This document shows, piece by piece, positions 4,988 through 31,913 of a stretch of 32,000 nt of DNA. The translations under genes and the position numbers were made by a program. Within the stretch, counting starts at the first letter, position 1, and every line of letters starts with the position of its first letter. The notes beneath the pieces are model-generated. The model was not told where the DNA came from. It saw only the letters and a program-made list of their open reading frames with translations, and did not search any database. Source of the stretch: Candidatus Saccharimonadota bacterium (GTDB lineage Bacteria; Patescibacteriota; Microgenomatia; UBA1406; GWC2-37-13); the NCBI GenBank assembly GCA_016432445.1, contig CP066689.1, forward strand, positions 1-32,000, in the 5' to 3' direction.

Positions 4988-5078
4988 ATAAATCCAAATT
5001 ACAAATTTCAAATGTCAAATCAAATCTAAAATCTAAATGAAATGATTTGAAATTTGACATTTGGATTTTTGACATTTT
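4988..5078. repeat. family A heptamer hairpin array (AAATGTC/AAATCCA versus TTTGACA/TGGATTT), likely terminator of the upstream gene
   Basis: aaatccaaattacaaatttcaaatgtcaaatc ... gatttgaaatttgacatttggattttt. Inverted arms followed by a T-run, directly after the stop at 4987. Confidence 0.75.
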
Positions 5079-5083
5079 AACTC

Positions 5084-5112
5084 TTGACATCTCTCTTTTT
5101 TTTCCTTACATT
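5084..5112 (+). promoter_or_regulatory. sigma70-like promoter for the 5124 gene
   Basis: TTGACA (5084-5089), a 17-nt spacer, then TACATT (5107-5112). The ATG is 11 nt downstream with no Shine-Dalgarno between them. Confidence 0.45.
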
Positions 5113-5123
5113 GTAATTAGTTC

Positions 5124-8407: not shown

Positions 8408-8441
8408 TTATCTCTCCCCTTTTTAATAAATTATTATATAA

Positions 8442-8477
8442 CCGTTATAATTGTTATAATCGTTATAACTGTTATAA
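8442..8477 (+). repeat. four tandem 9-bp units NNGTTATAA directly upstream of the pilin-like gene
   Basis: ccgttataa ttgttataa tcgttataa ctgttataa, then actt ATG. The junctions create two exact TATAAT hexamers. Confidence 0.85.
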
Positions 8478-10506: not shown

Positions 10507-10540
10507 TGATTCATGATTCACGATTCAGGATTCATGAATA
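10507..10540. repeat. family B heptamer array (NGATTCA units)
   Basis: tgattca tgattca cgattca ggattca tgaata. Overlaps the 5' end of the four-helix-bundle ORF. Confidence 0.85.
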
Positions 10541-10955
10541 TTATGAATAATACTAATAATTTGCCTACCACTACGAAAATTCGAGAGTTTACGGATTTAA
10601 AAGCTTGGCAAGAAAGCCATAAATTAGTAATTTTAATTTATAAAGTTACAAGAGACTTCCCAGAAAATGAAAAATATTCTCTTGTTGATCAAATGAGAAG
10701 ATCGTGTCAATTACAAGTAATATTGTTGAAGGATTTGGACGACAAACCTATAAAGATAAGATTCATTTTTACTATCAAGCACAAGGATCTTTAACAGAGC
10801 TTAAAAATCAACTTCTACTTGCAAAAGATATCAATTATCTTAAAGAACCTCATGTTCACCAATCTTTTAAACAAATCACATCAGCTCATCAATTACTTCA
10901 AGGCCTTATCAGGAAATCTAAATCTTTTTTAAAACTCGTGAATCATGAATCTTAA
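10513..10955 (+). pseudogene. four-helix-bundle protein (23S rRNA intervening-sequence protein family), frameshifted
   Basis: Two overlapping ORFs in different frames (10513..10794 and 10704..10955) together give the family pattern: FTDLKAWQESHKLVILIYKVTRDFP...EKYSLVDQMRRS / SITSNIVEGFGRQTYKDKIHFYYQAQGSLTELKNQL. The frame breaks near 10702-10706. It could also be a sequencing error. Confidence 0.7.
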
Positions 10956-10967
10956 ATCATGAATCGC
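10937..10967. repeat. family B heptamer array, complementary orientation (CATGAAT units)
   Basis: cgtgaat catgaat cttaaat catgaat cgc. Inverted relative to 10507..10540. Contains the stop codon of the four-helix ORF, and 23 nt are identical to part of 13116..13185. Confidence 0.85.
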
Positions 10968-13115: not shown

Positions 13116-13185
13116 TGATTCAGGATTCAAGATCCATGATTCACGAACGTAAAATTCATGAATCTTAAATCATGAATCGTGAATC
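13116..13185. repeat. family B heptamer hairpin array
   Basis: tgattca ggattca agatcca tgattca cgaacgt aaaattc atgaatc ttaaatc atgaatc gtgaatc. The arms gattcacg / cgtgaatc pair. Confidence 0.85.
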
Positions 13186-13235: not shown

Positions 13236-13310
13236 GAACAAAAATCAGTTATGAGTTTTGAGTTATGAGTTCTGGGCTATCCCCACAACCCAAAACCCAC
13301 AACCCATAAC
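13236..13310 (-). terminator. intrinsic terminator of trxB, built from a family E heptamer hairpin
   Basis: The two 29-nt arms (13248-13276 and 13282-13310) have a 5-nt loop and start 6 nt after the trxB stop. On the minus-strand RNA I count 23 Watson-Crick and 3 G-U pairs, followed by UGAUUUUUGUUCUU. Confidence 0.6.
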
Positions 13311-13316
13311 CAGTTA

Positions 13317-14402
13317 TTAAGAACTCATCTCCAGCCATTTCTCAATCTCAAGTGCCGCGGCCGCTCCCATGCCTGCGGCAGTTATAGCCTGACTGTAAAT
13401 ATGATCAACACAATCACCGGCCGCAAAAACACCTTCAACCGAAGTCATTGAAGGTGAGTGGAAATTAAATTTTTTAATCCCGTCGGTATCATGGGTAAGA
13501 ACATTTTCTTTCGAAGACCTTGCCTGCCGGCAGGCAGGTCTAAGATCTAAGATCGATGATCCAATTTTTTTTGCCATCTCCTCTGCCTTTTTAGCGGCTG
13601 TCACAATATAGCCATGTTCATCAAGTACGGGCGTATTGCCATACGCCCCTACATTAAGAAAATCCGTATCCGGTTTGTGACCAATGGCAATAAATAAGCC
13701 ATCAAGCTTTAGCTCTTTTTCTCCTTCTGCAGTAACTAACCTTACCCCTTCAACCTTTTTCTCCCCTATGACATCAGCCACCACCGCATTGTAAATAATC
13801 TCAATCTTAGGATTAGCCGTGACTCTTTCCTGCATAATCTTTGAAGCTTTAAATTTATCTCTTCGGTGAATAAGATAAACTTTGGCAGCAAACTTTGTCA
13901 AGGTTAGCGCCTCCTCCATAGCCGCATCCCCGCCGCCAACAACTCCTACAGTTTTTCCTTTGAAAAAAAATCCGTCGCAGGTCGCACAGGCCGAGATACC
14001 GTATCCACGAAGTCTTGTCTCTGCTTCCAAACCCAACCACATGGCTCTGGCGCCGGTAGCAATTAATATTGATTTGGCTAAGATCTTAGATCTAAGATCT
14101 TGGATCTGAGAAGGATATATTTCAAACGGCCTTTTGGAAAAATCAACCTTAACTATATTCTCATTTACAATTCTTGTTCCTAATTTTTCCGCCTGACTTC
14201 TCATTTTCTCAACCAATTCAGGTCCTGGAATCCGTTCAAAACCCGCATAATTTTCAACATCCGAAGTAAGCATCAGCTGACCGCCTGGAGGAGAACCGGC
14301 AAACAAAAGAGGATCAAGATTGGCCCGGGCAGTATAAATAGCCGCTGAAAGTCCGGCCGGCCCCCCACCTATTATTACAACATCCTCAATTTTGTTTGTC
14401 AT
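13317..14402 (-). CDS. trxB: thioredoxin-disulfide reductase
   Basis: VVIIGGGPAGLSAAIY (FAD), CATC redox centre in ISACATCDGFFF, GGGDAAMEEA (NADPH), HRRDKFKAS, GVFAAGDCVDHIYSQAITAAGMG. The ATG at 14402 (MTNKIED) is preferred over the track TTG at 14414, which lies in the repeat. Contains two repeat-derived inserts. Confidence 0.9.
   Translation of the reverse strand: MTNKIEDVVIIGGGPAGLSAAIYTARANLDPLLFAGSPPGGQLMLTSDVENYAGFERIPGPELVEKMRSQAEKLGTRIVNENIVKVDFSKRPFEIYPSQIQDLRSKILAKSILIATGARAMWLGLEAETRLRGYGISACATCDGFFFKGKTVGVVGGGDAAMEEALTLTKFAAKVYLIHRRDKFKASKIMQERVTANPKIEIIYNAVVADVIGEKKVEGVRLVTAEGEKELKLDGLFIAIGHKPDTDFLNVGAYGNTPVLDEHGYIVTAAKKAEEMAKKIGSSILDLRPACRQARSSKENVLTHDTDGIKKFNFHSPSMTSVEGVFAAGDCVDHIYSQAITAAGMGAAAALEIEKWLEMSS
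13517..13562. repeat. 25-nt palindrome plus family C units, in-frame in trxB
   Basis: gaccttgcctgcc|ggcaggcaggtc (1-nt bulge) followed by taagatctaagatcgatga. Encodes SSILDLRPACRQARSS within a ~40-aa segment absent from E. coli TrxB. Confidence 0.8.
14079..14110. repeat. family C heptamer array in-frame in trxB
   Basis: taagatc ttagatc taagatc ttggatc tgag, which on the coding strand gives QIQDLRSKILA. Confidence 0.85.
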
Positions 14403-14406
14403 ATTT

Positions 14407-14486
14407 TGATTCAAGATTTATGATTCACGATTCATGAATAAAATATCTAATTATTTCTTGAATCATGAATCCTGAATCGTGAATCG
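14407..14486. repeat. family B heptamer hairpin array
   Basis: Left arm tgattca agattta tgattca cgattca tgaata, right arm cttgaat catgaat cctgaat cgtgaat cg. Lies between the trxB start and the upstream gene's stop. Confidence 0.85.
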
Positions 14487-14492
14487 ATTGTA

Positions 14493-14740: not shown

Positions 14741-14808
14741 AAATCCAAAATCTAAATTTCAAATGTCAAATGATTTTTTTGAAATTTGACATTTGGATTT
14801 TTACATTT
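14741..14808. repeat. family A heptamer hairpin array, likely rho terminator
   Basis: aaatccaaaatctaaatttcaaatgtcaaatg attttttt gaaatttgacatttggattttt. The core aatgtcaaat/atttgacatt is a perfect 10-bp stem. Confidence 0.8.
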
Positions 14809-14819
14809 GTTATTTGGAG

Positions 14820-16100: not shown

Positions 16101-16136
16101 ATTATTTAAAATTTTTAATACGTAAATTACAAGAAA

Positions 16137-16223
16137 AAATCCAAATGTCAAAATCCAAATATCAAATTAATCCAAAATCCAAAACCTTTATCATTTGACA
16201 TTTGAGCTTTGTCATTTGGATTT
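16137..16223. repeat. family A heptamer hairpin array
   Basis: aaatccaaatgtcaaaatccaaatatcaaat ... tcatttgacatttgagctttgtcatttggattt. Confidence 0.8.
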
Positions 16224-16225
16224 AA

Positions 16226-16543: not shown

Positions 16544-16613
16544 ATATTCGATCTTGAATCTGAGATCTTAGGTCTTAGATTATCGAAGATCAAAAATCTA
16601 ACATCTTAAGATC
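16544..16613. repeat. family C/D heptamer array (exactly ten 7-nt units)
   Basis: atattcg atcttga atctgag atcttag gtcttag attatcg aagatca aaaatct aacatct taagatc. Confidence 0.85.
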
Positions 16614-16621
16614 AATTAGTA

Positions 16622-16947: not shown

Positions 16948-17961
16948 ATGAAGAAACTGAAAATTGCTTATTTTGGAACGCCTTATTTCTCAGCTGATTT
17001 TCTTGAAAAAATTTTAACTGACAATGAACTGCCAGTTGAAGTTAAGTTTATCATCACTCAGCCTGACCAACCCGCTGGTAGAAAACAAACTCTTACCCCT
17101 ACACCTGTTAAAGAAATGGCAAAAAAATATGGAATTGATGTTTATGGGCATTTGGCAGGTGGCGCGAATTTAGGGATCCCATCAGCGCGCAGGTTTAAAC
17201 GAGCACTGATGGGAAAAAATGAGCGACAGAATCTGCCAAATGCATTGAAAAATATTGACATCGCTCTCCTTTACGCTTACGGAAAAATCATTCCCTCCAA
17301 TCTTCTAACTATTCCTAAACTGGGATTTTGGAACATCCATCCCTCGCTTTTGCCTAAATATCGCGGCCCTTCGCCCATGGCTACCCCTTTAATTTTAGGA
17401 GATAAAGAAACAGGAGTTACCTTAATCAAGATGGATGAACAAATGGATCATGGACCAATTATCGCTCAGGAAAAGTATGAGATAAAACCTGATGACAGGC
17501 GCCCGGATCTGGAAAAAAAATTAACAGATTTGGGATATGAAATATTTAAAAAAACAATCATTAATTGTAGGCACAGGTCGCGACCTGTCCCTACCCGCGA
17601 ACAAGACCACATCCACGCCACCTACACTCACCTTCTTAACAAAAACGATGGCTTCATTCCTTTTGAAATTCTAAACTCGATCATCAATAATCGATCTTCG
17701 AAAGTCGAAAGTCGAATATCTAAAATCAAAGATCAAAGATCTAAGATCTACAACCTTTTCCGCGGTCTCTATCCCTGGCCAGGCATCTGGACAAAAGTCA
17801 ATATTAACGGCCAGGAAAAACGGTTAAAGATTACAGACATGGAATGTAGGGACAACCCTAGGGTTGTCCCTAGTTGTGAATTAATCATCAAAAAAGTCCA
17901 ACTCGAAGACAAAAAAGAAGTCGATTTTAAAATCTTCCAAAAAGCCTATTTATTGTTTTAA
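16948..17961 (+). CDS. fmt: methionyl-tRNA formyltransferase
   Basis: MKKLKIAYFGTPYFS..., ITQPDQPAGRK, FWNIHPSLLPKYRGPSPM, TGVTLIKMDEQMDHGPII. The ATG at 16948 is preferred over the track start at 16930. Four repeat-derived in-frame inserts. Confidence 0.85.
   Translation: MKKLKIAYFGTPYFSADFLEKILTDNELPVEVKFIITQPDQPAGRKQTLTPTPVKEMAKKYGIDVYGHLAGGANLGIPSARRFKRALMGKNERQNLPNALKNIDIALLYAYGKIIPSNLLTIPKLGFWNIHPSLLPKYRGPSPMATPLILGDKETGVTLIKMDEQMDHGPIIAQEKYEIKPDDRRPDLEKKLTDLGYEIFKKTIINCRHRSRPVPTREQDHIHATYTHLLNKNDGFIPFEILNSIINNRSSKVESRISKIKDQRSKIYNLFRGLYPWPGIWTKVNINGQEKRLKITDMECRDNPRVVPSCELIIKKVQLEDKKEVDFKIFQKAYLLF
17148..17243 (+). repeat. 96-nt hairpin element, copy 1 (in-frame in fmt, 32 codons)
   Basis: The termini gcatttggcag ... 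ctgccaaatgc form a perfect 11-bp inverted repeat, with an inner stem cccatcag/ctgatggg. 86 of 96 positions are identical to 25722..25817. Encodes HLAGGANLGIPSARRFKRALMGKNERQNLPNA. Confidence 0.9.
17567..17594. repeat. 28-nt near-perfect palindrome in-frame in fmt
   Basis: gtaggcacaggtcg|cgacctgtccctac, with 13 of 14 positions pairing. Encodes CRHRSRPVPT. Confidence 0.85.
17677..17751 (+). repeat. family D/C heptamer array (10-11 units) in-frame in fmt
   Basis: tcgatca tcaataa tcgatct tcgaaag tcgaaag tcgaata tctaaaa tcaaaga tcaaaga tctaaga tctac, encoding SIINNRSSKVESRISKIKDQRSKIY. Confidence 0.9.
17847..17872. repeat. 26-nt perfect palindrome in-frame in fmt
   Basis: tagggacaaccctagggttgtcccta is its own reverse complement. 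Its arms are shared with 17567..17594. Encodes CRDNPRVVPS. Confidence 0.9.
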
Positions 17962-20033: not shown

Positions 20034-20039
20034 AAACTT

Positions 20040-20106
20040 CAAATTCAAATGTCAAAGCTCAAATTTTGGATTTGTTTTGACATTTGTCATTTGAAATTTG
20101 GATTTA
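20040..20106. repeat. family A heptamer hairpin array
   Basis: caaattcaaatgtcaaagctcaaat ... ttgttttgacatttgtcatttgaaatttggattt, between the tgt stop and the VIT-like start. Confidence 0.8.
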
Positions 20107-21222
20107 AATCTCATTTCTCCTAATTGACTCCCTAACACTCTCCATAAATCTCTTCATTACCCATAAATTATGGTAAGTTGCTAAAGTATAACCCAAAAGT
20201 TCTTTCTGTTTAAACAGATGATAAAGATAAGCTTTAGTAAAGTTTTGGCAAACATAACACTCACAGTTCTCATCCACCCTTTCTAAATTATCTTTATATA
20301 TAGTCTTATTAATATCAATCTTCTCCCATCTTTGAAATTTGAAATTTGAAATTTGGATTTGATAGATAGTCCCCATTCTCGCCAGTCTGGTGGGTTCAAC
20401 ACAGTCAAAAGTATCAATACCATAGCCCACCAAATCTAAAATGTCATCAGCATGCCCCACTCCCAAAAGATGCACGGGTTTATCTTCAGGCAAATACTCT
20501 GAAACCCAGGAAACCTGCTGTCTCATCTCCTCTTTTGTCTCCCCCACTGACACACCACCTATTGCCACACCATCAGTGTTTTGAGAAACAACAAATTTAG
20601 CTGACTCCTTTCTCAAATTCTCATATTTCCCTCCCTGAATGATCCCATAAAGGAATTGAAATTTTTGATTTTTGATATTCGATATTCGAAAATCGATTGT
20701 CGAAGATCGAATGCACCTTTTTAGCCATTCATGCGTTCTCTCCATTGACTTTTTTGCATAAACGTGATCAGCTCCGCAGTCTAAACACTCATCAAAAGCC
20801 ATGATTAAATCCGCCCCAATCTTTTTCTGATACTCAATTGATTTTTCAGGAGTAAACTCAACCAAAGTGCCATCATAAGTTGACCTGAACTTGACTCCAT
20901 CTTCGGAAATTTTTTCCACCAATGGTTCTTCTTCCCCAAAAACCTTAGCTTTACGCTTGCCGGTAGCTAAAGAAAAAACCTGAAATCCGCCTGAATCAGA
21001 CATTAAAGGAACTTCAAGTTTAGAAAATCCATGAATGCCGCCGGCTTTTTCAATAATTTCAACTCCCGGATGAGTAACTAAATGGTAGCAGTTAACAAAA
21101 GCTACCTTAACCCCGACCTCTTTAACTTGTTTGGGAGTTAAAGACTTTAAAGTTCCTTTTGTAGCCACAGGCACAAAAGCCGGAGTTTCAATCTCACCAT
21201 GAAAAGTTGCAATTTTGCCCAA
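20104..21222 (-). CDS. tgt: tRNA-guanine transglycosylase (queuine tRNA-ribosyltransferase)
   Basis: HGEIETPAFVPVATKGTLK, MSDSGGFQVFSL, IMAFDEC, YGIIQGG, AIGGVSVGE, LLGVGH, FDCVEPTRLAR, CECYVCQNFTKAYLYHL (zinc site). The first canonical start is TTG at 21222, but homology continues upstream to about 21270 (see findings). Two heptamer inserts. Confidence 0.9.
   Translation of the reverse strand: MGKIATFHGEIETPAFVPVATKGTLKSLTPKQVKEVGVKVAFVNCYHLVTHPGVEIIEKAGGIHGFSKLEVPLMSDSGGFQVFSLATGKRKAKVFGEEEPLVEKISEDGVKFRSTYDGTLVEFTPEKSIEYQKKIGADLIMAFDECLDCGADHVYAKKSMERTHEWLKRCIRSSTIDFRISNIKNQKFQFLYGIIQGGKYENLRKESAKFVVSQNTDGVAIGGVSVGETKEEMRQQVSWVSEYLPEDKPVHLLGVGHADDILDLVGYGIDTFDCVEPTRLARMGTIYQIQISNFKFQRWEKIDINKTIYKDNLERVDENCECYVCQNFTKAYLYHLFKQKELLGYTLATYHNLWVMKRFMESVRESIRRNEI
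20331..20363. repeat. heptamer array (TTTGAAA units) in-frame in tgt
   Basis: tttgaaa tttgaaa tttgaaa tttggat ttgat, which on the coding strand gives QIQISNFKFQR. Confidence 0.85.
20655..20710. repeat. family D heptamer array (8 units) in-frame in tgt
   Basis: The coding strand tcgatcttcgacaatcgattttcgaatatcgaatatcaaaaatcaaaaatttcaat encodes RSSTIDFRISNIKNQKFQ. A 19-nt stretch is identical to the glycosyltransferase copy. Confidence 0.9.
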
Positions 21223-21269
21223 TCGCGCCCTTGATTTTCCCGATTTATGTTCTACCTGAAAAAATTTTA

Positions 21270-21821: not shown

Positions 21822-21947
21822 GTGATGAATGATATCTGAATCCGCTTTAAAAATCAAGAAAGTGGAAATTTGGGGAAAATATTATATAATATAGTTATAA
21901 AAATGGTCGACAGCAAAGGAATCTCATTTAGAAGATTGTTTTGCGGT

Positions 21948-21985
21948 AAACCAGCATGATCTTAACAAAGACTGCTGGTTTTTTT
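21948..21985 (+). terminator. intrinsic terminator-like hairpin upstream of the DUF2294 gene
   Basis: A 9-bp stem aaaccagca (21948-21956) / tgctggttt (21973-21981) with a 16-nt loop and a run of seven T. No CDS lies upstream on this strand. Confidence 0.5.
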
Positions 21986-22004
21986 AGTTTATAGACTTAA
22001 ATTT

Positions 22005-22385
22005 ATGAACCCCACAAAAACAAAAGGACAAATAGAAGATGATATCTCCAAAAAAACTACGAAGTTTTACTTTGATCATTTGGGCGTTGGCCCCAAAGAA
22101 ACCCGCGTTTATATCATTCATGACATGATTATTGTCCGCCTTAAAGGTAATCTTCTACCTATTGAAAAAAAACTTCTTGAGGCTGAAGGCGGCATAGAAC
22201 TGGTTAAAAATATAAGACAAGCTCTCCATGAGATCACCACCAAACACTTAGGCACAATTATTGAAGAAGTAACAAATCACAAAGTGATAAGTTCTCATAG
22301 CGATATAAGCACCAAAACGGGTGAAAGACTTGAGGTGTTTATACTTGACAGCGATTACGAACAACTTTTAAAAAAAACAGCTTAA
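22005..22385 (+). CDS. DUF2294 / MpsC-like family protein
   Basis: KGQIEDDISKKTTKFYFDHLGVGPKETRVYIIHDMIIVRLKGNLLPIEKKL...HSDISTKTGERLEVFILD matches the pattern I recall for this family. Confidence 0.7.
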   Translation: MNPTKTKGQIEDDISKKTTKFYFDHLGVGPKETRVYIIHDMIIVRLKGNLLPIEKKLLEAEGGIELVKNIRQALHEITTKHLGTIIEEVTNHKVISSHSDISTKTGERLEVFILDSDYEQLLKKTA

Positions 22386-22468
22386 GAAAACTGTAGAAAG
22401 GGCTCAAACTTCTTAAAAAAGGGGCCGGTTAGACAGTAATCTTCTTTAAATTTTTTCCGGACCCTATC

Positions 22469-22672
22469 ATGACCAACAAACACTGGGAGTATTTTGCGTA
22501 CAGATATCTTTATATTAATACTGTATGTATCGTCATCCTTTTGGAGCTGATCATCTTTAACAGCTATTATTTATCTGTATTTATAATAATTTTAGCATTC
22601 AGACTTCTAGCCAATTTTACTAAGTCTAAAAAGATAACCCCTCAAGCTAAAAGTATTGTTGCGAAGATTTAA
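22469..22672 (+). CDS. hypothetical small membrane protein (weak)
   Basis: 67-aa ORF with two hydrophobic segments and no motif support. Its stop overlaps the thyA stop. Confidence 0.3.
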   Translation: MTNKHWEYFAYRYLYINTVCIVILLELIIFNSYYLSVFIIILAFRLLANFTKSKKITPQAKSIVAKI

Positions 22673-23652
22673 ACTTTATTCTTACTCTTTTCATAGTATC
22701 CGCCAACAACCGAAAGTTCTCCTTTTATAGGCGGGTGGGGATTGTAATTTTCAAGTATAACGTGCTCAGGCCTGAAATCATCAATATCTTTAACTGAAGA
22801 GTCAATCTTAATTGTAGGAAAAGACCTTGGCTCTCTTTTTATCTGCTCTTTTACTTGGGTCAAATGATTTTCATAAATATGAACATCGCCAAAAGTATGA
22901 ACAAACTCTCCAGGCTCATAACCTGTAACTTTCGCAATGATAAAAGTAAGCAAAGCGTAACTGGCAATATTAAAAGGAACACCTAAGAAAACATCAGCAC
23001 TGCGCTGATAAAGCTGAAGATTCAATTTGCCTTTTTTCATATTGATTTGGTACATATTGTGACAGATTGGGAAGTAAGAAGTATCCTCAGGTTGAGCCAT
23101 GGTGTATAAATACTCAGGGTTCCATGAATTAACAATAGTATTGTGAGCATAAGGATCCTCTTTTATCTCATTGACCACCCATAATAACTGATCTATTGTT
23201 CTTGCGGGCTTGCCTCGCCGAAGCCCAGCGTAGGCGGGCCATTTTCTCCACATCTCGCCATAAATTCTAGGAAGTTCTCCATGTTTTCTAGCAAACTTAT
23301 CATCCGTCTTTATCTTTTCAATAAACTCCTCTTTATCTAAGATCTTAGATCTTAGATCTTGGATCTTAGATTTGTAAATTTTATAAGGGTAATCGTCCCA
23401 AATGTGAACATTATTATCAACTAGATATTTAATGTTAGTTTGGCCGGACATAAACCAATAAAGTTCATGTAAAACTCCTTTCCAGTAAACACGCTTTGTT
23501 GTTAAAAGAGGCAGTCCTTTAGATAAATCAAAACGGATCTGACGGCCAAAAACTCCATAGGAGTAAACATCGGCTCCCCGGTCATGGTTTTTATCACCGT
23601 TTTTCAAAATATCCTTAAGTAGATTTAGATATTGGTATTCTGGATGATCCAT
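22669..23652 (-). CDS. thyA: thymidylate synthase (ThyA)
   Basis: RFDLSKGLPLLTTKRV, HELYWFMSGQTN, IVNSWNP, catalytic Cys in FPICHNMYQ, LYQRSADVFLGVPFNIASYALL, FGDVHIYENH. The ATG at 23652 (MDHPEYQYL) is preferred. Two repeat-derived inserts. Confidence 0.92.
   Translation of the reverse strand: MDHPEYQYLNLLKDILKNGDKNHDRGADVYSYGVFGRQIRFDLSKGLPLLTTKRVYWKGVLHELYWFMSGQTNIKYLVDNNVHIWDDYPYKIYKSKIQDLRSKILDKEEFIEKIKTDDKFARKHGELPRIYGEMWRKWPAYAGLRRGKPARTIDQLLWVVNEIKEDPYAHNTIVNSWNPEYLYTMAQPEDTSYFPICHNMYQINMKKGKLNLQLYQRSADVFLGVPFNIASYALLTFIIAKVTGYEPGEFVHTFGDVHIYENHLTQVKEQIKREPRSFPTIKIDSSVKDIDDFRPEHVILENYNPHPPIKGELSVVGGYYEKSKNKV
23211..23240. repeat. 30-nt GC-rich element in-frame in thyA, second copy at 16771..16800
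   Basis: tgcctcgccgaagcccagcgtaggcgggcc versus tgcctcgccgaagcctagcgaaggcgggtc (27 of 30 identical). Read on opposite strands in the two genes: PAYAGLRRGK versus SASPKPSEGGS. Confidence 0.85.
23335..23373. repeat. family C heptamer array in-frame in thyA
   Basis: atctaag atcttag atcttag atcttgg atcttag attt, which on the coding strand gives KSKIQDLRSKILD. Confidence 0.9.
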
Positions 23653-23656
23653 AATT

Positions 23657-23743
23657 AAATCCAAAGTTCAAATGTCAAATGTCAAAACAAATCCAAAAAA
23701 AAATTATAAATTATTTGATATTTGACATTTGGATTTTGACATT
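23657..23743. repeat. family A heptamer hairpin array between dcd-like and thyA
   Basis: aaatccaaagttcaaatgtcaaatgtcaaaacaaatcc ... atttgatatttgacatttggattttgacatt. Confidence 0.8.
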
Positions 23744-25089: not shown

Positions 25090-26238
25090 ATGACCCCCGT
25101 TTACGTTTTTGATCCAACGGCTAGTGACCTTTTAAGCCGAGTCCGCGGCATCGGCCGCTATCTCCAACTCCTTAAAGAAAACTTTAGCAACGAATTCATT
25201 TTCTCAGATAAACTACCCTCAACTCACAACTCACAACCCATAACCTTCATCAACCCTTTCTTTGACCCTCTTAAAACACCCTTACTGATGAAAAGAATCG
25301 CGCAAAAACAAATTGCCGTCATCCATGACCTTATTCCCCTTAAATATCCTTTTCATTTTCCTGTTGGCATTCGGGGAAAATTGAATATATTTCTAAATAA
25401 ACTAGCTCTCAAAAATTATGATTTAATCATCACCGATTCGCAAACCAGTAAAAAAGATATCGTTAATATTTTAAAAGTGAAAAGTGAAAAGTTAAAAGTT
25501 ATCTACCCCACTCTCACTGGCATTTTTTTTGATAGTCGATCTTCGACAATCGATCTTCGAACATCAAATATCGAAAATCGAAAATCTAAGATCAAAGATC
25601 TAAGATCAAACTATCTTATTTACGTAGGGGACGCCACCTGGAATAAAAATCTGGTAAATCTTACGAAAGCAATTAAATTCGCCAATGTCACCTGCATTTT
25701 CGTCGGAAAAATATTTACAAATTATTTGACAGGTGGCGCGAATTTAGGGATCCCGTCAGCGCGCAGTTTTGGACGAGCACTGATGGGAAAAAATGAGCGA
25801 CAGAATCTGTCAAATAACCAACTCGACCATCCCTGGCAAAAAGACCTTAAAGAATTTCTAGAAATCACTCAAAACGACAAGCACTTTATTTTCCCAGGAT
25901 TTGTTAAAGATGAGGAATTAATCTCACTTTACAAAAATGCCGTTGCTAACATTCTTGTTTCCCGCGACGAAGGCTTTGGCTTCTCTTACTTTGAAGCTGC
26001 TTCCCAAGGGACCCCTTCAATTTTAAGCGATATTTCAATATTTCACGAAACTGCCGCTGATGCAGCTTTATTTGCCGATCCCAATAACCCTCAAGATATT
26101 GCCGATAAGATCAATGAACTTTTTACTAATAAGGAATTTGCCCAAAAACTGGGAAATAAGGCCAAACACCGAACTCTAAGCTTTTCTCCAAAAAAATTTA
26201 AGGAAGATTTATTGAAGATAATAAATGATAACTGGTAA
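25090..26238 (+). CDS. glycosyltransferase family 1 (GT4-type)
   Basis: The C-terminal half has the GT1 E-x7-E region (VSRDEGFGFSYFEAASQGTPSI) and LYKNAVANILVS. Carries a family E half-array, a TKAAAAG array, a D/C array and the 96-nt element, all in-frame. Confidence 0.85.
   Translation: MTPVYVFDPTASDLLSRVRGIGRYLQLLKENFSNEFIFSDKLPSTHNSQPITFINPFFDPLKTPLLMKRIAQKQIAVIHDLIPLKYPFHFPVGIRGKLNIFLNKLALKNYDLIITDSQTSKKDIVNILKVKSEKLKVIYPTLTGIFFDSRSSTIDLRTSNIENRKSKIKDLRSNYLIYVGDATWNKNLVNLTKAIKFANVTCIFVGKIFTNYLTGGANLGIPSARSFGRALMGKNERQNLSNNQLDHPWQKDLKEFLEITQNDKHFIFPGFVKDEELISLYKNAVANILVSRDEGFGFSYFEAASQGTPSILSDISIFHETAADAALFADPNNPQDIADKINELFTNKEFAQKLGNKAKHRTLSFSPKKFKEDLLKIINDNW
25218..25245 (+). repeat. 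family E half-array (C-rich arm only) in-frame in the GT gene
   Basis: ctcaactcacaactcacaacccataacc, encoding STHNSQPIT. Confidence 0.75.
25471..25498 (+). repeat. four tandem 7-nt units TKAAAAG in-frame
   Basis: ttaaaag tgaaaag tgaaaag ttaaaag, encoding LKVKSEKLKV. May be partly native sequence. Confidence 0.6.
25536..25610 (+). repeat. family D/C heptamer array (10-11 units) in-frame in the GT gene
   Basis: tcgatct tcgacaa tcgatct tcgaaca tcaaata tcgaaaa tcgaaaa tctaaga tcaaaga tctaaga tcaaa. Same unit order as the fmt array. Encodes SRSSTIDLRTSNIENRKSKIKDLRSN. Confidence 0.9.
25722..25817 (+). repeat. 96-nt hairpin element, copy 2 (in-frame in the GT gene)
   Basis: The termini ttatttgacag ... 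ctgtcaaataa form a perfect 11-bp inverted repeat. Encodes YLTGGANLGIPSARSFGRALMGKNERQNLSNN. Confidence 0.9.
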
Positions 26239-28011: not shown

Positions 28012-28812
28012 ACTATTTTCTACAGTAATTTTAGTTAATTTATCAAAATCAACTTTAATAATATCGGCTATAAATTTTCCAATCAATAATAAATTTGAAG
28101 GAGTGTTAGGATATTTTTTTTGAGTTCTTAAAGGTTCAGGCAGTAAAAATGGCGCATCAGTTTCTAAAACTAACTGATCTAAAGGAATTTTTTTAATAAA
28201 ACTTTGTTTTTCTTTTGAGTAAGTAATGTCACCGTCAACGCCAATGTAAATTTTGTGTTCCACTGCAAACTTTAAAAGCTCGCCATCAGGTTCACAGCAA
28301 TGAAAAACTGTTTTACCTTCTAACTTAGGATCCCATTTCTCCTTTAAAATTTTAAGCACATCTTCTTTAGCCTCACGGTTATGAATGATTAAACTTTTAT
28401 CATATTTTATGGCTAAATCTAACTGCTTTTTAAATAACTCTTTTTGCAGATCAATAAATTTTTCATCAACTTCATAATCCGAATACTTCGTCTTGCCGTA
28501 TGAATGCCTGTCTATTCCCACTTCGCCCACCGCCACCACCCTATCATTTTTTAATGATTGCTCTAATTCTTCTAAATTAATTTGAAATTTAAAATTTGAA
28601 ATTTGAAATTCATAGATGTGATGCGGATGTATGCCTACGGCTGCATAAACTCCTTCATGTTCGCCGGCTATCTCCACGGCTTTTCTTGAAGAAACAATGT
28701 CTGTCCCCGGGATAAGAATATAATCCACACCCGACGTTTTAGCTTGTATTAAAACTTCATCAATCTTGTTTTTGAAAGCATCAAAATTTAAATGGCAGTG
28801 AGTATCAAACAT
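27958..28812 (-). CDS. tatD: TatD-family metal-dependent DNase/hydrolase
   Basis: MFDTHCHLNF, GIHPHH, VAVGEVGIDRH, LIIHNREA, FHCC and LETDAPFL motifs. The 3' end overlaps the convergent upstream gene by 54 nt. One heptamer insert. Confidence 0.88.
   Translation of the reverse strand: MFDTHCHLNFDAFKNKIDEVLIQAKTSGVDYILIPGTDIVSSRKAVEIAGEHEGVYAAVGIHPHHIYEFQISNFKFQINLEELEQSLKNDRVVAVGEVGIDRHSYGKTKYSDYEVDEKFIDLQKELFKKQLDLAIKYDKSLIIHNREAKEDVLKILKEKWDPKLEGKTVFHCCEPDGELLKFAVEHKIYIGVDGDITYSKEKQSFIKKIPLDQLVLETDAPFLLPEPLRTQKKYPNTPSNLLLIGKFIADIIKVDFDKLTKITVENSLRLFNLDFNHVKGGIFA
28579..28611. repeat. heptamer array (AATTTGA units) in-frame in tatD
   Basis: aatttga aatttaa aatttga aatttga aattc, which on the coding strand gives EFQISNFKFQIN. 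The peptide core is the same as in tgt. Confidence 0.85.
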
Positions 28813-29725: not shown

Positions 29726-29767
29726 AAGATTAATGTAAATTATCTTTCCCCGGATGTCAAGTAATAT

Positions 29768-29840
29768 GAGATCTTAGATGTTAGATCTTTGATCTTAGAA
29801 AGAATAATATCTAAGATCTGAGATCTCAGATCCGAGATCT
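29768..29840. repeat. family C heptamer hairpin element
   Basis: Left arm gagatcttagatgttagatctttgatcttaga (32 nt, identical to 30314-30345), right arm tctaagatctgagatctcagatccgagatct. Confidence 0.9.
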
Positions 29841-29872: not shown

Positions 29873-30310
29873 ATGACCATCTTCATCGGTACCGACCACC
29901 GTGGATTTGAGCTTAAAAATAAACTACTGGATTATCTTCAGGATAAAAATATCCGGGTTGAGGACATGGGTAATTATGAGTACGATGCCGAAGACGATAA
30001 CCCAGATTATGCCAAAAAAGTAGCTCAAGCTGTTCTTCAGAATCCTTCAGAGTTTTTAGGCATTGTTATCTGCGGATCAGGAATAGGAGTCAGTATGGCC
30101 GCTAACCGCTTTAAAGGCATCCGCTGTGCTTTAGGTTTTGATATTTCACAAGTTAAACACGGCCGGGAGAATGATCATATTAATGTTCTGGCCATACCTG
30201 CAGAGTATACAGATTTTGAGACTGCCACTCAAATGATAGACACGTTTATCCAAACTCCAATTATCAAAAAAGAAAAATATTTAAGAAGATCAAGAAAGCT
30301 AGATGAATAA
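29873..30310 (+). CDS. rpiB: ribose-5-phosphate isomerase B (RpiB/LacA/LacB family)
   Basis: MTIFIGTDHRGFELK, VICGSGIGVSMAANRFKGIRCA and NVLAIPAEY. ATG 29873 is preferred over the track TTG at 29840, which lies inside the repeat/promoter. Confidence 0.9.
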   Translation: MTIFIGTDHRGFELKNKLLDYLQDKNIRVEDMGNYEYDAEDDNPDYAKKVAQAVLQNPSEFLGIVICGSGIGVSMAANRFKGIRCALGFDISQVKHGRENDHINVLAIPAEYTDFETATQMIDTFIQTPIIKKEKYLRRSRKLDE

Positions 30311-30313
30311 AAT

Positions 30314-30398
30314 GAGATCTTAGATGTTAGATCTTTGATCTTAGATCAAATTACAAAAATATATAATATCGAATATCCAAGATCTAAGATCTCAGATC
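30314..30398. repeat. family C heptamer hairpin element between convergent rpiB and dprA
   Basis: Left arm gagatcttagatgttagatctttgatcttagatc, right arm atcgaatatccaagatctaagatctcagatc. T-rich tract after the stem on the minus strand (dprA side). Confidence 0.9.
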
Positions 30399-31485
30399 AA
30401 AAATCTCTTAACTGGAACTTCCCCTCTTCATTTCTGTCAATTATTTTTTTCACTTCCATAATTGACAACAATGGCAGTAAGTTATGAATTTGAGTTTTAC
30501 ATTCCAAAGCTAGATCATCAGCATTAAGCGGCTGAAAACTTAAACAGTCATATATTTTTTTCTCATCTGCAGTTAAGGTAAGATTAACTTCTTTTTTTGA
30601 AGGCGCCGCTTTAAGATTAAACTCATTTAAGATATCCTCAACTGAAGTTGCTAAAACCGCGCCTTGTTTTAGTAGAATATTTGGCGCTTCAGAAAGTTCA
30701 GAGGTTAAAGGCACAGGGGGCGCAAAAACCTCTTTTCCCTGCAAAGCCGCATACTTGGCTGTTATCAAAGCTCCGGATTTATTAGTTCCCTCAACTACTA
30801 AAACTCCCTTAGATAAACCTGAAATTAGTCTGTTCCGGGCAATAAAAAGTCCCGGCAAAACTGTCCTTCCCGGAGGAAATTCGGAGATAACTAATCCATT
30901 CTCTTTAATTATCTGCTCATATAATTTTCTATTACCAGGAGGATAAACAATATCAACGCCACACCCTAAAAAAGCTACCGTTTTTCCATGGCAGTTTAAA
31001 GCTGATTGATGAGCGATCGTATCAATTCCTTGCGCCAAACCCGACACAATGGTGGCCCCGGTTTCGGCAAGCTTAAGAGAAAACATTTTGGTTATTTGCT
31101 GACCATAAGGACTGGGTTTTCTTGTTCCAACAACTGCAAAATAAAATCCCTCATCAAAATTATATTTTTTAATATCTCCCTTAACATAAAGGCATATTGG
31201 CGGATCTGGGATATTAATGATGGATGAAGGATAAAAAGAATCTTCTTGAGTAATAATCATTATCTCTTTTTCTACAATTTCCTGGTATTTTTTTTGAGCA
31301 TCAAACTTATTTTTAAAATCAATAAAATCTGCGGCTGTTTTTTCTCCAATTAATGGTTTTATTTCGGAAAAAGAAGCTTCATAGGCTTGTTTTACATCAC
31401 CAAAAGTATCTAATAATTTTCTAAATTTCATCGGCCCAATCCCTAAGAAATGGGAAAAGGCGAGGTAATAATAAATATTCTTCAT
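30397..31485 (-). CDS. dprA: DNA-processing protein DprA (Smf)
   Basis: AVVGTRKPSPYG, VSGLAQGIDTIAHQSAL, VAFLGCGVDIVYP, FIARNRLISGLS and GALITAKYAALQGKEVFA. ATG 31485 (MKNIYYY) is preferred over the repeat-encoded track start at 31500. Confidence 0.9.
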   Translation of the reverse strand: MKNIYYYLAFSHFLGIGPMKFRKLLDTFGDVKQAYEASFSEIKPLIGEKTAADFIDFKNKFDAQKKYQEIVEKEIMIITQEDSFYPSSIINIPDPPICLYVKGDIKKYNFDEGFYFAVVGTRKPSPYGQQITKMFSLKLAETGATIVSGLAQGIDTIAHQSALNCHGKTVAFLGCGVDIVYPPGNRKLYEQIIKENGLVISEFPPGRTVLPGLFIARNRLISGLSKGVLVVEGTNKSGALITAKYAALQGKEVFAPPVPLTSELSEAPNILLKQGAVLATSVEDILNEFNLKAAPSKKEVNLTLTADEKKIYDCLSFQPLNADDLALECKTQIHNLLPLLSIMEVKKIIDRNEEGKFQLRDF

Positions 31486-31517
31486 AAATCCAAATGACAA
31501 ATTTCAAATGTCAAATT
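31486..31517. repeat. family A heptamer array (single arm)
   Basis: aaatccaaatgacaaatttcaaatgtcaaatt. The inverted partner is at 31861..31913, on the other side of the four-helix-bundle gene. Confidence 0.85.
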
Positions 31518-31890
31518 ACTTACAACTTCTAATAATGGAGGAAAATATTAAGGATAATTCATGAGCCTCTTGAGAAAATTTTCTACACTGAATTCCCAAA
31601 TCAGGGCGAGCTATTAATAACATACGTACCCAATAAACAGATTCTTTTGCCTCTTTCTTGCATAACCCAATTTTGTGAATAAAATCTTTTTTTGATTCAG
31701 CACCATCGGCTTCCGCATAATTAGCGCCTATACTAGTAGCCGATCTTACAAGCTGGCTTTTTATTGGTGTAATTATAGGGTTATCAGATAACCTCATTAA
31801 GAATGTGATAACCTCTTCACCATATTTTGCAGTTCTCTCTATTAAATCGTATTTTCTTTGTAAATTTGGATTTTGGATTTGATTTGGCAT
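31516..31890 (-). CDS. four-helix-bundle protein (23S rRNA intervening-sequence protein family)
   Basis: YDLIERTAKYGEEVITFL, QLVRSATSIGANYAEADGAESKKDFIHKIGLCKKEAKESVYWVRML. The start codon and the first ~10 residues (MPNQIQNPNLQ) are encoded by the family A array. Confidence 0.85.
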   Translation of the reverse strand: MPNQIQNPNLQRKYDLIERTAKYGEEVITFLMRLSDNPIITPIKSQLVRSATSIGANYAEADGAESKKDFIHKIGLCKKEAKESVYWVRMLLIARPDLGIQCRKFSQEAHELSLIFSSIIRSCK

Positions 31891-31913
31891 TTGACATTTG
31901 AAATTTGGATTTT
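31861..31913. repeat. family A heptamer array, complementary orientation
   Basis: taaatttggattttggatttgatttggcatttgacatttgaaatttggatttt. Confidence 0.85.

What the first reader, a model, noticed from the sequence alone, without database searches (positions are those of the whole stretch)
4988..31913. Multi-family heptanucleotide hairpin arrays occupy most intergenic spacers
The spacers are not random AT-rich DNA. Each is built from tandem 7-nt units followed by the complementary units, so it can fold into a long imperfect hairpin. The families I can read are listed here. A = AAATGTC/AAATCCA versus TTTGACA/TGGATTT (4988-5078, 14741-14808, 16137-16223, 20040-20106, 23657-23743, 31486-31517, 31861-31913). 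B = NGATTCA versus TGAATCN (10507-10540, 10937-10967, 13116-13185, 14407-14486). C = AGATCTN (16544-16613, 29768-29840, 30314-30398). D = ATCGAAN. E = GTTATGR/GGGTTNT versus CCCANAA (13248-13310). F = GTTCGTN. By my count 13 of about 17 spacers longer than 50 bp carry one. Copies share long identical stretches: 32 nt between 29768 and 30314, and 23 nt between 10944 and 13158. That pattern indicates dispersed copies of element families rather than independent slippage. Tandem heptamers (STRR) are established in heterocystous cyanobacteria, and REP/BIME hairpins in enterics. I cannot place a system with this many 7-nt families in a small AT-rich genome. The window has no transposase or integrase that could explain the dispersal.
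Basis: partly seen in the sequence, partly recalled or inferred. Interest (0 to 1): 0.78.

Follow-up and report, generated by a model that had tools for sequence, protein, structure and literature searches.

The report
Heptamer hairpin elements carrying IVP genes
This small Roizmanbacteria (CPR) genome is peppered, between genes and in frame inside them, with hairpin-forming runs of 7-base repeats; these runs are the arms of an element found in several phyla, whose full-length copies carry a small four-helix-bundle gene so far known from ribosomal-RNA intervening sequences.

Summary
The window has 25 strong period-7 runs, against 0 in shuffles and 0 at neighbouring periods. The spacer arrays fold into long imperfect hairpins (z -2 to -7.7). 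Independent assemblies are 100% identical across the arrays they cover.

1. More array DNA lies inside ORFs than in spacers. There it forms lineage-specific in-frame insertions in Tgt, TrxB, Fmt, ThyA, TatD, a glycosyltransferase and a surface protein. Only stop-free orientations occur in ORFs.

2. Both PF05635/TIGR02436 genes in the window sit exactly between inverted heptamer arms (family A at 31486-31913, family B at 10507-10967). These genes encode the "23S rRNA intervening-sequence protein", which is Avd-like. The arms are 81-93% identical to those of the short gene-less hairpins.

The same gene-between-arms layout recurs in other CPR lineages (65 non-redundant cassettes, lag-7 match 0.49 against 0.25 background). 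It also recurs in 4 of 4 Acidobacteriota IVP genes, each with other heptamers.

Best reading: these are IVS-like, REPIN/RAYT-like hairpin elements with short derivatives, and ORF insertions like those of RPEs. How they move, and what the protein does, is inferred and not shown. I rate this a new variant of a known kind. I found no published description.

The parts
4988..5078 (.). Family A hairpin (CAAATNN arm, then NNATTTG arm), starting right after the ORF1 stop codon. A TTGACA unit supplies a -35-like box upstream of ORF2.
   Evidence: (z -3.6/-3.3)
10507..10540 (.). Family B (NGATTCA) 5' arm of the IVP2 cassette. It contains the ORF's ATG.
10513..10955 (+). Frameshifted PF05635/TIGR02436 four-helix-bundle gene (IVP2), lying in the loop between the family B arms.
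10937..10967 (.). Family B (TGAATCN) 3' arm of the IVP2 cassette. It encodes the C-terminal ...VNHES and supplies the stop codon.
   Evidence: (D19)
13116..13185 (.). Family B hairpin without a gene.
   Evidence: (z -4.0/-6.1)
13244..13311 (.). Family E hairpin (GAGTTNT/GGGTNAT against CCCANAA), abutting the TrxB stop codon.
   Evidence: z -4.6/-7.7
14403..14487 (.). Family B hairpin filling the spacer between the CsoR-like gene and TrxB.
   Evidence: z -4.9/-6.1. Orthologous genes overlap, with no spacer, in L007.
14741..14818 (.). Family A hairpin between Rho and the CsoR-like gene.
   Evidence: (z -2.4/-2.7)
16136..16223 (.). Family A hairpin upstream of Rho.
   Evidence: z -4.6/-5.4
16544..16613 (.). 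Mixed family C/D array. Only a weak hairpin.
   Evidence: z -2.1/-1.1
20038..20106 (.). Family A hairpin between Tgt and VIT1. Its right arm is 93% identical to the right arm of the IVP1 cassette.
   Evidence: z -3.5/-5.4; D7
23657..23743 (.). Family A hairpin between Dcd and ThyA.
   Evidence: z -7.6/-3.6
29768..29840 (.). Family C (AGATCTN) hairpin in a divergent spacer upstream of RpiB.
   Evidence: z -4.8/-4.4; D6
30314..30407 (.). Family C/D hairpin in the convergent spacer after RpiB. Its left arm is 97% identical to 29762-29799.
   Evidence: (z -4.1/-5.5)
31486..31517 (.). Family A arm of the IVP1 cassette, on the 3' side of the gene.
   Evidence: (D10)
31516..31890 (-). Intact PF05635/TIGR02436 four-helix-bundle gene (IVP1). 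Its N-terminus MPNQIQNPN is encoded by the array.
31861..31913 (.). Family A arm of the IVP1 cassette, on the 5' side of the gene and overlapping the start codon.
   Evidence: (arm-arm duplex -54.4 kcal/mol)
3239..4907 (+). In-ORF arrays in the C-terminal part of surface protein ORF1. They comprise D (3239-3268, 3415-3441, 3826-3853, 3939-3972, 4804-4831), F (3368-3399, 3779-3811), E hairpins (3597-3666, 4070-4168) and C (4876-4907). All are read through in frame.
   Evidence: E hairpin z -5.0/-6.9
13536..13561 (-). Family C array inside the roughly 40-aa TrxB insertion (...SSILDLRPACRQA...). The insertion is absent from solved TrxB structures and from the L007 ortholog.
14078..14111 (-). Family C array in TrxB (peptide QIQDLRSKIL).
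17669..17751 (+). Family D/C arrays in Fmt (peptide RSSKVESRISKIKDQRSKI), at a variable site.
20328..20360 (-). A single family A arm, in its stop-free orientation, inside Tgt (peptide IQISNFKFQ). It is an insertion relative to the solved Tgt structure.
   Evidence: D8, 91%
20661..20697 (-). Heptamer array in Tgt (peptide IDFRISNIKNQ), at an insertion hot spot.
23334..23371 (-). Family C array in ThyA (peptide KIQDLRSKILD), in the variable region of the protein.
25215..25615 (+). Three arrays in the glycosyltransferase gene (25215-25245, 25470-25502, 25557-25615), all in frame.
28579..28612 (-). A single family A arm, in its stop-free orientation, in TatD (peptide FQISNFKFQI).

Best explanation
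The arrays are the arms of a class of hairpin (palindromic) repeat elements. One arm is a run of 7-nt units with 5-6 fixed bases and 1-2 free bases. The other arm is a run of the complementary units. Because both arms are periodic, they can pair in any register.

Full-length copies carry a PF05635/TIGR02436 four-helix-bundle gene (IVP, Avd-like) in the loop. Its start codon lies in the 5' arm and its stop codon lies next to the 3' arm. This is the layout of the ORF-bearing 23S rRNA intervening sequences, here placed between ordinary genes. The short gene-less hairpins that fill the spacers are derivatives of those cassettes, in the way REPINs relate to RAYT genes or MITEs to insertion sequences.

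Arms or whole hairpins that are free of stop codons have also entered permissive loops of ORFs. There they are translated as peptides with a 7-aa period. Arrays change by slippage and by exchange between copies.

Shown: the periodicity, the hairpin potential, the homology between dispersed copies, the insertion status in ORFs, and the IVP-between-arms layout in several phyla.

Inferred: that the elements move or once moved, that IVP acts on its own arms, and that the transcribed stems are cut by RNase III as IVS stems are.
For: Reality of the arrays: period 7 only. The hairpins are far more stable than shuffles. Independent assemblies are identical.

Families with common termini and shared derived variants: D6 97%, D7 93%, D10 71-84%, D13 81%, D19 89%. 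Arms of the two IVP-bearing copies are 81-93% identical to the arms of the gene-less hairpins.

IVP layout in the window: both IVP genes (2 of 2) lie between inverted arms.

IVP1 subfamily:
- 2301 homologs at E<=1e-5.
- All 40 N-termini printed read M[SPT]NQ.QN.N or an array-coded extension of it, which is CAAATNN sequence in translation.
- Loci from Gottesmanbacteria, Moranbacteria and GCA_965231095.1 have both arms.
- In 78 metagenome loci the arm-arm duplex has median -41.9 kcal/mol against -24.5 for shuffles, and 49 of 78 have z<-3.
- In 65 non-redundant cassettes the lag-7 match is 0.49 (upstream) and 0.48 (downstream), against 0.24-0.26 in the gene body and in distal DNA.
- Own arm partners pair better than swapped partners (-38.0 against -34.0 kcal/mol, p=0.009).

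IVP2 subfamily: C-termini F[ILV]NHKS and N-termini MIHDS/MIQDS are array-coded. L217 and L218 have inverted GATTTAN/TAAATCN arms.

Acidobacteriota: 4 of 4 IVP genes found in unrelated loci are flanked by inverted heptamers. L018 and L059 have AGATCTC. L065 has TTTGGTC/GACCAAA. L105 has CTTTGTN/NACAAAG.

In-ORF arrays are insertions: Tgt homologs range from 349 to 471 aa with three hypervariable hot spots, and some homologs carry no insert. Solved Tgt and TrxB structures lack these residues. Orthologs in L006-L008 differ at exactly these sites. In L007 the CsoR-like gene and TrxB overlap where the window has a hairpin spacer.

Stop-codon filter: family B has TGA on both strands and is never found in an ORF. 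Family A occurs in ORFs only in its TGA-free orientation.

Precedent: the Coxiella and Leptospira IVS is a selfish element with an S23p ORF and terminal inverted repeats whose stem RNase III cuts (PMC4990558). RAYT genes are flanked by their own REPINs (PMC3337134).
Against: No transposase, integrase or HUH nuclease lies in the window. PF05635 proteins have no known catalytic activity, PADLOC gives no hit, and the closest solved structure (2rld) is uncharacterised.

No target-site duplication is visible at the family A termini.

No presence/absence polymorphism was seen. Six contigs from the same study are identical to the window.

IVP cassettes hold the same operon position in related Acidobacteriota (L065/L105, L018/L059). 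They therefore behave as long-term residents and not as active jumpers.

Only 4 of the 120 AGATCTN-selected loci contain an IVP gene within 8 kb, so most arrays are not next to one.

Close syntenic relatives carry few or no arrays: 3, 0 and 3 in 21 kb each.

RNA folding shows no consistent advantage for the transcribed strand, so an RNA-level role is not demonstrated.
Confidence: 0.55

Rival explanations
1. The hairpins are host regulatory structures kept by selection. They would act as transcription terminators or attenuators, 3'-end stabilisers, or intercistronic processing sites. The resemblance between copies would then reflect shared function and concerted evolution, not selfish spread.
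For: Seven hairpins lie in six spacers between co-directional genes, often starting within a few bases of a stop codon (4988, 13311/13317, 14487/14493). Some are followed by T runs (GGATTTTT, GAATCTTTTT). The stems are long and stable. REP/BIME elements have such roles.
Against: The hairpins also lie in divergent 5'-5' spacers (29768-29840; 16136-16223 and 16544-16613) and inside ORFs. The consensus terminator scan does not pick out the spacer hairpins. A conventional GC-stem plus T-run hairpin exists elsewhere in the window at 21948-21985. Syntenic relatives lack the hairpins, and their genes abut or overlap. This reading does not explain the IVP genes in the loops.
Confidence: 0.2
2. The arrays are cooperative binding sites for a DNA-binding protein, one dimer or subunit per 7-bp unit, in direct and inverted orientation. 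The model is the heptad arrays bound by omega/ParB of pSM19035. The IVP protein, or another factor, would bind them for auto-regulation or nucleoid organisation.
For: Contiguous 7-bp heptads in mixed orientation form a proven protein-binding architecture, and at least 4 units are needed there (PMC9499535). The fixed 5-6-nt core with a free 7th base looks like a recognition unit plus a spacer. Each of the four IVP subfamilies examined goes with one core type: CAAATNN; TGATTCN/GATTTAN; AGATCTC; CAAAGNN.
Against: At least six core families sit in one 32-kb window, which would require many specificities. Arrays inside ORFs and next to unrelated genes have no obvious regulatory logic. PF05635 proteins are helical-bundle pentamers with no demonstrated sequence-specific DNA binding (the Avd biology is from my own knowledge). 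The complementarity of the arms, as opposed to mere repetition, is conserved.
Confidence: 0.12
3. These are ordinary microsatellites. Each array arose on the spot by replication slippage of a chance heptamer, with no relation between loci.
For: Arrays drift from one unit to a neighbouring one (ATCGAAN to ATCTAAG; GGCGCAG to ATCTCAG in L086), as slippage would produce. Arm lengths differ between copies.
Against: Different loci share the same non-consensus units and the same termini over 22-54 nt. Period 7 is the only period present. Each array is paired with its complement. The same layout surrounds homologous genes in distant phyla.
Confidence: 0.05
4. The arrays are assembly or sequencing artefacts.
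For: Short-read contigs end inside the repeats.
Against: Five independent run assemblies are 100% identical over 6.2 kb that includes four arrays. Reading frames of conserved enzymes pass through the arrays intact. The same kind of array occurs in isolate genomes: Terrimonas rubra, Flaviaesturariibacter flavus and Ruminococcus flavefaciens.
Confidence: 0.01

Closest known systems
ORF-bearing 23S rRNA intervening sequences (Leptospira, Coxiella; S23p ORF)
   Same: A PF05635-family ORF lies in the loop of a long stem formed by terminal inverted repeats. These elements are regarded as selfish, with an ORF once proposed as a mobility factor (PMC4990558). The window's two cassettes have this layout.
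   Different: The cassettes here lie between protein-coding genes, and none of 20 IVP1 loci tested is in rRNA. Their stems are built from tandem heptamers. They are accompanied by many gene-less derivatives and by ORF insertions. RNase III cleavage was not tested.
REPIN-RAYT systems (REP/BIME)
   Same: A single gene is flanked by its own inverted repeats, and many short hairpin doublets of the same sequence are dispersed in spacers. There are several families per genome, with specificity between gene and repeat (PMC3337134; PMC3116915).
   Different: The gene is a roughly 125-aa four-helix bundle and not an HUH/Y1 transposase. The arms are periodic heptamers and not a 20-40-nt GTAG/CGTC-tagged palindrome. 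The elements also enter ORFs.
Rickettsia palindromic elements (RPE)
   Same: Palindromic repeats are inserted in frame in conserved protein-coding genes at permissive sites and are translated (my own knowledge: Ogata et al. 2000). Compare.
   Different: RPEs are 100-150-bp non-periodic elements in Rickettsia. Here the inserts are short heptamer runs, often a single arm, and no associated gene is known for RPEs.
Cyanobacterial STRR heptanucleotide repeats
   Same: Tandem 7-nt units occur in several families within one genome, mostly in spacers.
   Different: The units differ (STRR1-3 are CCCCAGT, TTGGTCA, CAACAGT, from my own knowledge) and so does the phylum. Here the units have a free position, are paired with complementary arrays, occur in ORFs, and flank IVP genes.
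MITEs
   Same: Short non-coding derivatives share terminal inverted repeats with a longer gene-bearing copy.
   Different: No transposase is present and no target-site duplication is seen.
Heptad-repeat parS/operator arrays of pSM19035 (omega protein)
   Same: Contiguous 7-bp units occur in direct and inverted orientation (PMC9499535).
   Different: Those are a few plasmid sites bound by a ribbon-helix-helix protein. Here there are dozens of chromosomal sites, six or more cores, and hairpin symmetry.

Membership tests
STRR (cyanobacterial short tandemly repeated repetitive sequences) | Tandem heptanucleotide units | tested here: met
   Only lag 7 is enriched.
STRR (cyanobacterial short tandemly repeated repetitive sequences) | STRR unit sequences, and a host among heterocystous cyanobacteria | tested here: not met
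   The units are AGATCTN, NGATTCA, CAAATNN, ATCGAAN, CCCANAA and GTTCGTN. The organism is Candidatus Roizmanbacteria.
REP/BIME/REPIN | Short imperfect palindromes dispersed in spacers, occurring as inverted doublets that form hairpins | tested here: met
REP/BIME/REPIN | Conserved GTAG or CGTC head on the REP unit (PMC3733652) | tested here: not met
   The arms begin AAATCC, TGATTCA or GAGATCT.
REP/BIME/REPIN | A cognate RAYT (HUH/Y1) gene flanked by the repeats | tested here: not met
   The flanked gene is PF05635 and not a RAYT. The rest of the genome was not searched.
23S rRNA IVS with S23p/IVP ORF | A PF05635 ORF enclosed by terminal inverted repeats that form a long stem | tested here: met
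   Arm-arm duplexes are -54.4 and -42.9 kcal/mol in the window, and the layout recurs in 78 further loci.
23S rRNA IVS with S23p/IVP ORF | Insertion in helix 25 or 45 of the 23S rRNA gene | tested here: not met
   There are no rRNA hits in the window or in 20 IVP1 loci. The cassettes lie between protein-coding genes.
23S rRNA IVS with S23p/IVP ORF | Excision from the transcript by RNase III | not testable with these tools
Rickettsia palindromic elements | In-frame insertion of palindromic repeats in conserved ORFs, absent from orthologs | tested here: met
Rickettsia palindromic elements | Sequence homology to RPE families | not tested
   No RPE library was on hand. The units here are 7-nt periodic, unlike RPEs (my own knowledge).
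MITE | Terminal inverted repeats shared with a longer copy | tested here: met
   (D7, D10, D13, D19).
MITE | Target-site duplication, and a transposase-encoding parent element | tested here: not met
   There are no direct duplications at six family A copies and no transposase in the window.
CRISPR / TIGR arrays | Repeats of about 25-40 nt interspaced with unique spacers | tested here: not met
   The units are contiguous 7-mers with no spacers.

The most novel reading that the evidence does not exclude
PF05635/TIGR02436 four-helix-bundle proteins may be the trans-acting partners of heptamer-armed hairpin elements. So far they are known only as "23S rRNA IVS proteins" and as the Avd cofactor of diversity-generating retroelements. 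Each IVP subfamily would recognise its own 7-nt repeat, as RNA or single-stranded DNA, and would maintain, process or mobilise a population of gene-less hairpins. That would be a REPIN-RAYT-like partnership built on a non-HUH protein. It would tie together rRNA intervening sequences, the long-noted excess of heptanucleotide repeats in bacteria, and the insertion-riddled proteins of CPR bacteria.
Probability: 0.3. Interest if true: 0.9.

Novelty: new variant of a known kind. Interest (0 to 1): 0.72.

Why it matters
1. It gives a testable context for a very large orphan protein family. One subfamily alone has 2301 homologs at E<=1e-5, and the family's only characterised member is the DGR cofactor Avd.
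2. It links three things so far treated separately: ORF-bearing rRNA intervening sequences, heptanucleotide tandem repeats, and palindromic insertions in coding sequences.
3. It explains why conserved CPR enzymes differ in length between close lineages (Tgt ranges from 349 to 471 aa). It also warns annotators that low-complexity peptides such as DLRSKI, ISNFKFQ and TSNIENLTS derive from repeats.
4. It explains why short-read assemblies of these genomes break where they do.
5. The 7-nt period, which excludes 6 and 8 across several phyla, points to a mechanistic constraint that is still unknown.

Tried and rejected
- Rfam. At gathering thresholds on the whole window, and at permissive E-values on 16150-16950 and 21850-22700, nothing credible appeared. 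No tRNA or tmRNA was found.
- Consensus terminator scan. It does not single out the spacer hairpins.
- Literature. Ten full-text searches found no description of heptamer hairpins in CPR and no link between PF05635 and heptamer repeats. This is absence from the held library only.
- Close relatives. Three syntenic Roizmanbacteria/Patescibacteria loci have 3, 0 and 3 arrays in 21 kb each. The closest Tgt homolog is only 70% identical, so presence or absence at orthologous sites could not be dated.
- Population variation. Contigs from other runs are identical to the window, so they are not informative.
- IVP in rRNA. None of 20 IVP1 loci lies in rRNA.
- PADLOC. No hit for either IVP.
- First IVP search. 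A phmmer search with IVP1 alone against the other-phylum loci found nothing. A broader HMM built from the IVP2 representatives was needed.
- Strand bias. I looked for a G-U advantage on the transcribed strand, to separate an RNA-level role from a DNA-level one. There was no consistent direction.
- DGR-type adenine mutagenesis as the source of the free base. I rejected it because only one of several adenines per unit varies. The free base also follows genome GC: it is mostly C or G in the other-phylum loci (GC 0.32-0.71, mostly above 0.5), and A or T here.
- Rest of the genome. The 1.10-Mb genome could not be fetched. Look-ups returned only short Logan contigs.
Full report
**Source and setting.** The window (GC about 38%) comes from a Candidatus Roizmanbacteria MAG. 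Its Tgt protein is 100% identical to an NCBI entry on a 1,103,789-bp contig. Gene content is typical of CPR: GNVGIGTTSP-repeat surface proteins, Rho, Fmt, Tgt, ThyA, DHFR, TrxB, TatD and DprA. There is no tRNA, no rRNA and no Rfam family at gathering score.

- Runs with at least 18 of 21 matches at lag 7 number 25. They number 0 in 50 dinucleotide-preserving shuffles and 0 at lags 3-6, 8, 10, 12, 13 and 15. TRF reports the same arrays.
- A unit has 5-6 fixed bases plus 1-2 free bases: AGATCTN, NGATTCA, ATCGAAN, GTTCGTN, CCCANAA, CAAATNN.
- The spacer arrays fold into long imperfect hairpins in which roughly 6-bp helices are separated by single mismatches at the free position. On the better strand z is -2.7 to -7.7 against dinucleotide shuffles for ten of eleven spacer hairpins.
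- The long identities claimed between copies are correct and stronger than stated. 29762-29799 and 30308-30345 are 97% identical over 38 nt and share two non-consensus units. 10943 and 13156 share 24 identical bases.
- By my ORF calls, 11 of 15 spacers longer than 50 bp carry an array.
- Logan contigs assembled independently from five other runs are 100% identical to window 17206-23368. A sixth contig covers 30317-32953. All of them end inside repeats, as de Bruijn assemblies do at dispersed repeats.

- At a threshold of 17 of 21 matches, period-7 runs cover 753 nt of coding DNA and 354 nt of non-coding DNA. The density is higher in spacers (11.9% against 2.6%).
- Arrays lie in frame in ORF1 (3239-4907), TrxB, Fmt, Tgt (two), ThyA, a glycosyltransferase (three) and TatD. 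They encode peptides such as TSNIENLTS, DLRSKI and ISNFKFQ.
- They are insertions. Against solved structures, Tgt carries extra residues exactly at IDFRISNIKNQ and IQISNFKFQ, and TrxB has a roughly 40-aa insert.
- Tgt homologs in the same search, several annotated as Roizmanbacteria, range from 349 to 471 aa. They show three hypervariable hot spots filled with different low-complexity peptides, and some homologs carry no insert.
- Syntenic orthologs in L006-L008 differ from the window at these same sites.
- A stop-codon filter is visible. Family B (TGATTCA/TGAATCA) has TGA on both strands, which closes all frames within three units, and it is never found in an ORF. Family A occurs in ORFs only in its TGA-free orientation, as a single arm. 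Families that are open in both arms (E, and F with D) occur in ORF1 as whole hairpins.
- This is the behaviour described for Rickettsia palindromic elements.

- The window holds two PF05635/TIGR02436 genes ("23S rRNA intervening-sequence protein", four-helix bundle, Avd-like). One is intact (31516-31890, minus strand). The other is frameshifted (10513-10955).
- Each lies exactly between inverted heptamer arms: family A at 31486-31517 and 31861-31913, and family B at 10507-10540 and 10937-10967. The predicted arm-arm duplexes are -54.4 and -42.9 kcal/mol.
- The start codon and first residues (MPNQIQNPN) are encoded by the 5' arm. The stop codon sits next to, or in, the 3' arm.
- The arms of these gene-bearing copies are 81-93% identical to the arms of the short gene-less hairpins elsewhere in the window (D7, D10, D13, D19). 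Family A copies share the termini AAATCCAAA...TTTGGATTT.

**The layout is general.**
- *IVP1 subfamily.* It has 2301 homologs at E<=1e-5, spread over Microgenomates and Parcubacteria lineages at about 60-67% identity. All 40 N-termini printed are array-coded. Loci from Gottesmanbacteria, Moranbacteria and a further 886-kb genome have both arms.
- *Metagenome loci.* In 78 loci the upstream-downstream duplex has median -41.9 kcal/mol, against -24.5 with a shuffled partner, and 49 of 78 have z<-3. In 65 non-redundant cassettes the match at lag 7 is 0.49 (upstream) and 0.48 (downstream), against 0.24-0.26 in the gene body and in distal DNA. Own partners pair better than swapped partners (p=0.009), with visible co-variation such as CCAAT with ATTGG in L149.
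- *IVP2 subfamily.* It shows array-coded termini (F[ILV]NHKS, MIHDS) and inverted GATTTAN/TAAATCN arms in two of three loci read.
By my own arithmetic, about 0.004 are expected by chance for 24 fixed bases. Hits were dominated by Pyrinomonadaceae and also came from Planctomycetota, Hydrogenedentes, Bacteroidota, Shapirobacteria, Saccharibacteria and isolate genomes. In those loci only lag 7 is enriched, and 43 of 103 non-palindromic arrays have the complementary array within 150 nt. An HMM search found four IVP genes there, and all four are flanked by inverted heptamers. Two have AGATCTC. Two have cores that were not the selection criterion: TTTGGTC/GACCAAA in L065 and CTTTGTN/NACAAAG in L105, both at the same position in an ABC-transporter operon.

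**How it most likely works.**
- The established precedent is the ORF-bearing 23S rRNA IVS. It is a selfish element bordered by inverted repeats, RNase III cuts its 28-bp stem, and its S23p ORF was once proposed as a mobility factor (PMC4990558).
- The closest organisational analogue is the REPIN-RAYT system: a gene flanked by its own repeats, plus many hairpin doublets in the spacers (PMC3337134).
- I therefore read the window as holding gene-bearing cassettes (families A and B) and their short derivatives. Families C to F presumably have parents elsewhere.
- Periodic arms can pair in any register, so each arm can slip independently without losing the hairpin. The free base sits opposite another free base and is unconstrained. 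It is mostly C or G in the other-phylum loci (GC 0.32-0.71, mostly above 0.5) and mostly A or T here.
- In a transcript the long-range stem would bury the IVP start codon and would present an RNase III substrate.
- Everything beyond the anatomy is inference: movement, the role of IVP, and RNA cleavage. Against active mobility, there is no transposase, no target duplication and no polymorphism, and cassette positions are conserved between related Acidobacteriota.

**Rival readings.**
- *Terminators or processing sites.* This is plausible for some copies that abut stop codons and are followed by T runs. It does not account for copies in divergent spacers, copies inside ORFs, the absence of hairpins in syntenic relatives whose genes overlap, or the enclosed genes. 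An ordinary terminator-like hairpin exists at 21948-21985.
- *Protein-binding heptad arrays.* Binding as in pSM19035 (PMC9499535) is compatible with the fixed-core-plus-free-base design and with the pairing of IVP subfamily and core type. It remains a live alternative, or a complement to the main reading.
- *Independent slippage and assembly artefact.* Both are contradicted.

**Novelty.** Ten full-text searches found no account of these arrays in CPR and no link between PF05635 and heptamer repeats. That absence covers the held library only. I file this as a new variant of known kinds (IVS, REPIN, RPE). The open possibility is that the IVP-heptamer partnership is a system in its own right.

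Noticed in passing
17150-17241 and 25724-25815: A 92-nt GC-rich hairpin element with 9-nt terminal inverted repeats is inserted in frame in two unrelated genes, Fmt and a glycosyltransferase (peptide GGANLGIPSAR.F.RALMGKNERQNL). The two copies are 93% identical. The terminal stem carries a compensatory change (ATTTGGCAG/CTGCCAAAT against ATTTGACAG/CTGTCAAAT). The element is absent from Fmt orthologs in L006-L008.
   Followed up: partly
4430-4519; 16882-16921: A GTCATCCTGA...TCAGAATGAC hairpin element lies inside ORF1 (peptide ...EILRSAQNDN; MFE -33 kcal/mol). A related short hairpin, GTCATTTCGACC...GAGAAATGAC, lies in the Rho/Fmt spacer. This is another, non-heptamer repeat family that also enters ORFs.
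   Followed up: partly
13523-13534: The GC palindrome CCTGCCGGCAGG lies inside the TrxB-specific insertion (peptide PACRQA). The same peptide motif appears in an inserted segment of a distant Tgt homolog (P0061).
   Followed up: no
8437-8477 and 26264-26304: A 9-nt tandem repeat, GTTATAAYN (TATAAT-like), occurs once just upstream of the pilin-like gene and once inside the signal-peptide coding region of the 587-aa protein.
   Followed up: no
21948-21985: A conventional GC-stem plus T-run terminator-like hairpin lies on the + strand just upstream of the MpsC-family gene. It could be a leader or attenuator. Rfam gives no hit.
   Followed up: partly
16230-16530: About 300 nt of GC-richer non-coding sequence lies between Rho and a small 79-aa membrane ORF (16634-16873). 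A strong promoter-like site on the - strand lies at 16532-16503. No Rfam family matches at E<=1.
   Followed up: partly
In-ORF arrays, e.g. 3412-3441, 23334-23371, 28579-28612: Three heptamers make 21 nt, which is 7 codons, so translated arrays give 7-aa periodic peptides (NIENLTS, DLRSKIQ, ISNFKFQ). Their hydrophobic residues are spaced 3-4 apart, like coiled-coil heptads. This may help proteins tolerate them.
   Followed up: no
L086 1349-1403; L021 2200-2260; L014 207-310: In other phyla one heptamer array runs directly into another with a different unit (GGCGCAG to ATCTCAG; CTCTTAG to ATCTTAG). Arrays also lie in long open frames there: L022 512 aa, L009 835 aa, L076 589 aa.
   Followed up: partly
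L219 1000-1060: An IVP2-type gene is followed by (CATATCT)x7 with no evident complementary upstream arm. It lies between two giant ORFs (7095 and 1779 aa). One-armed cassettes therefore exist, as also in L138-L140.
   Followed up: no
29762-29799 and 30308-30345: RpiB is bracketed by two family C hairpins. Their left arms are nearly identical (97% over 38 nt) while their right arms differ. This suggests recent gene conversion or duplication around the gene.
   Followed up: no
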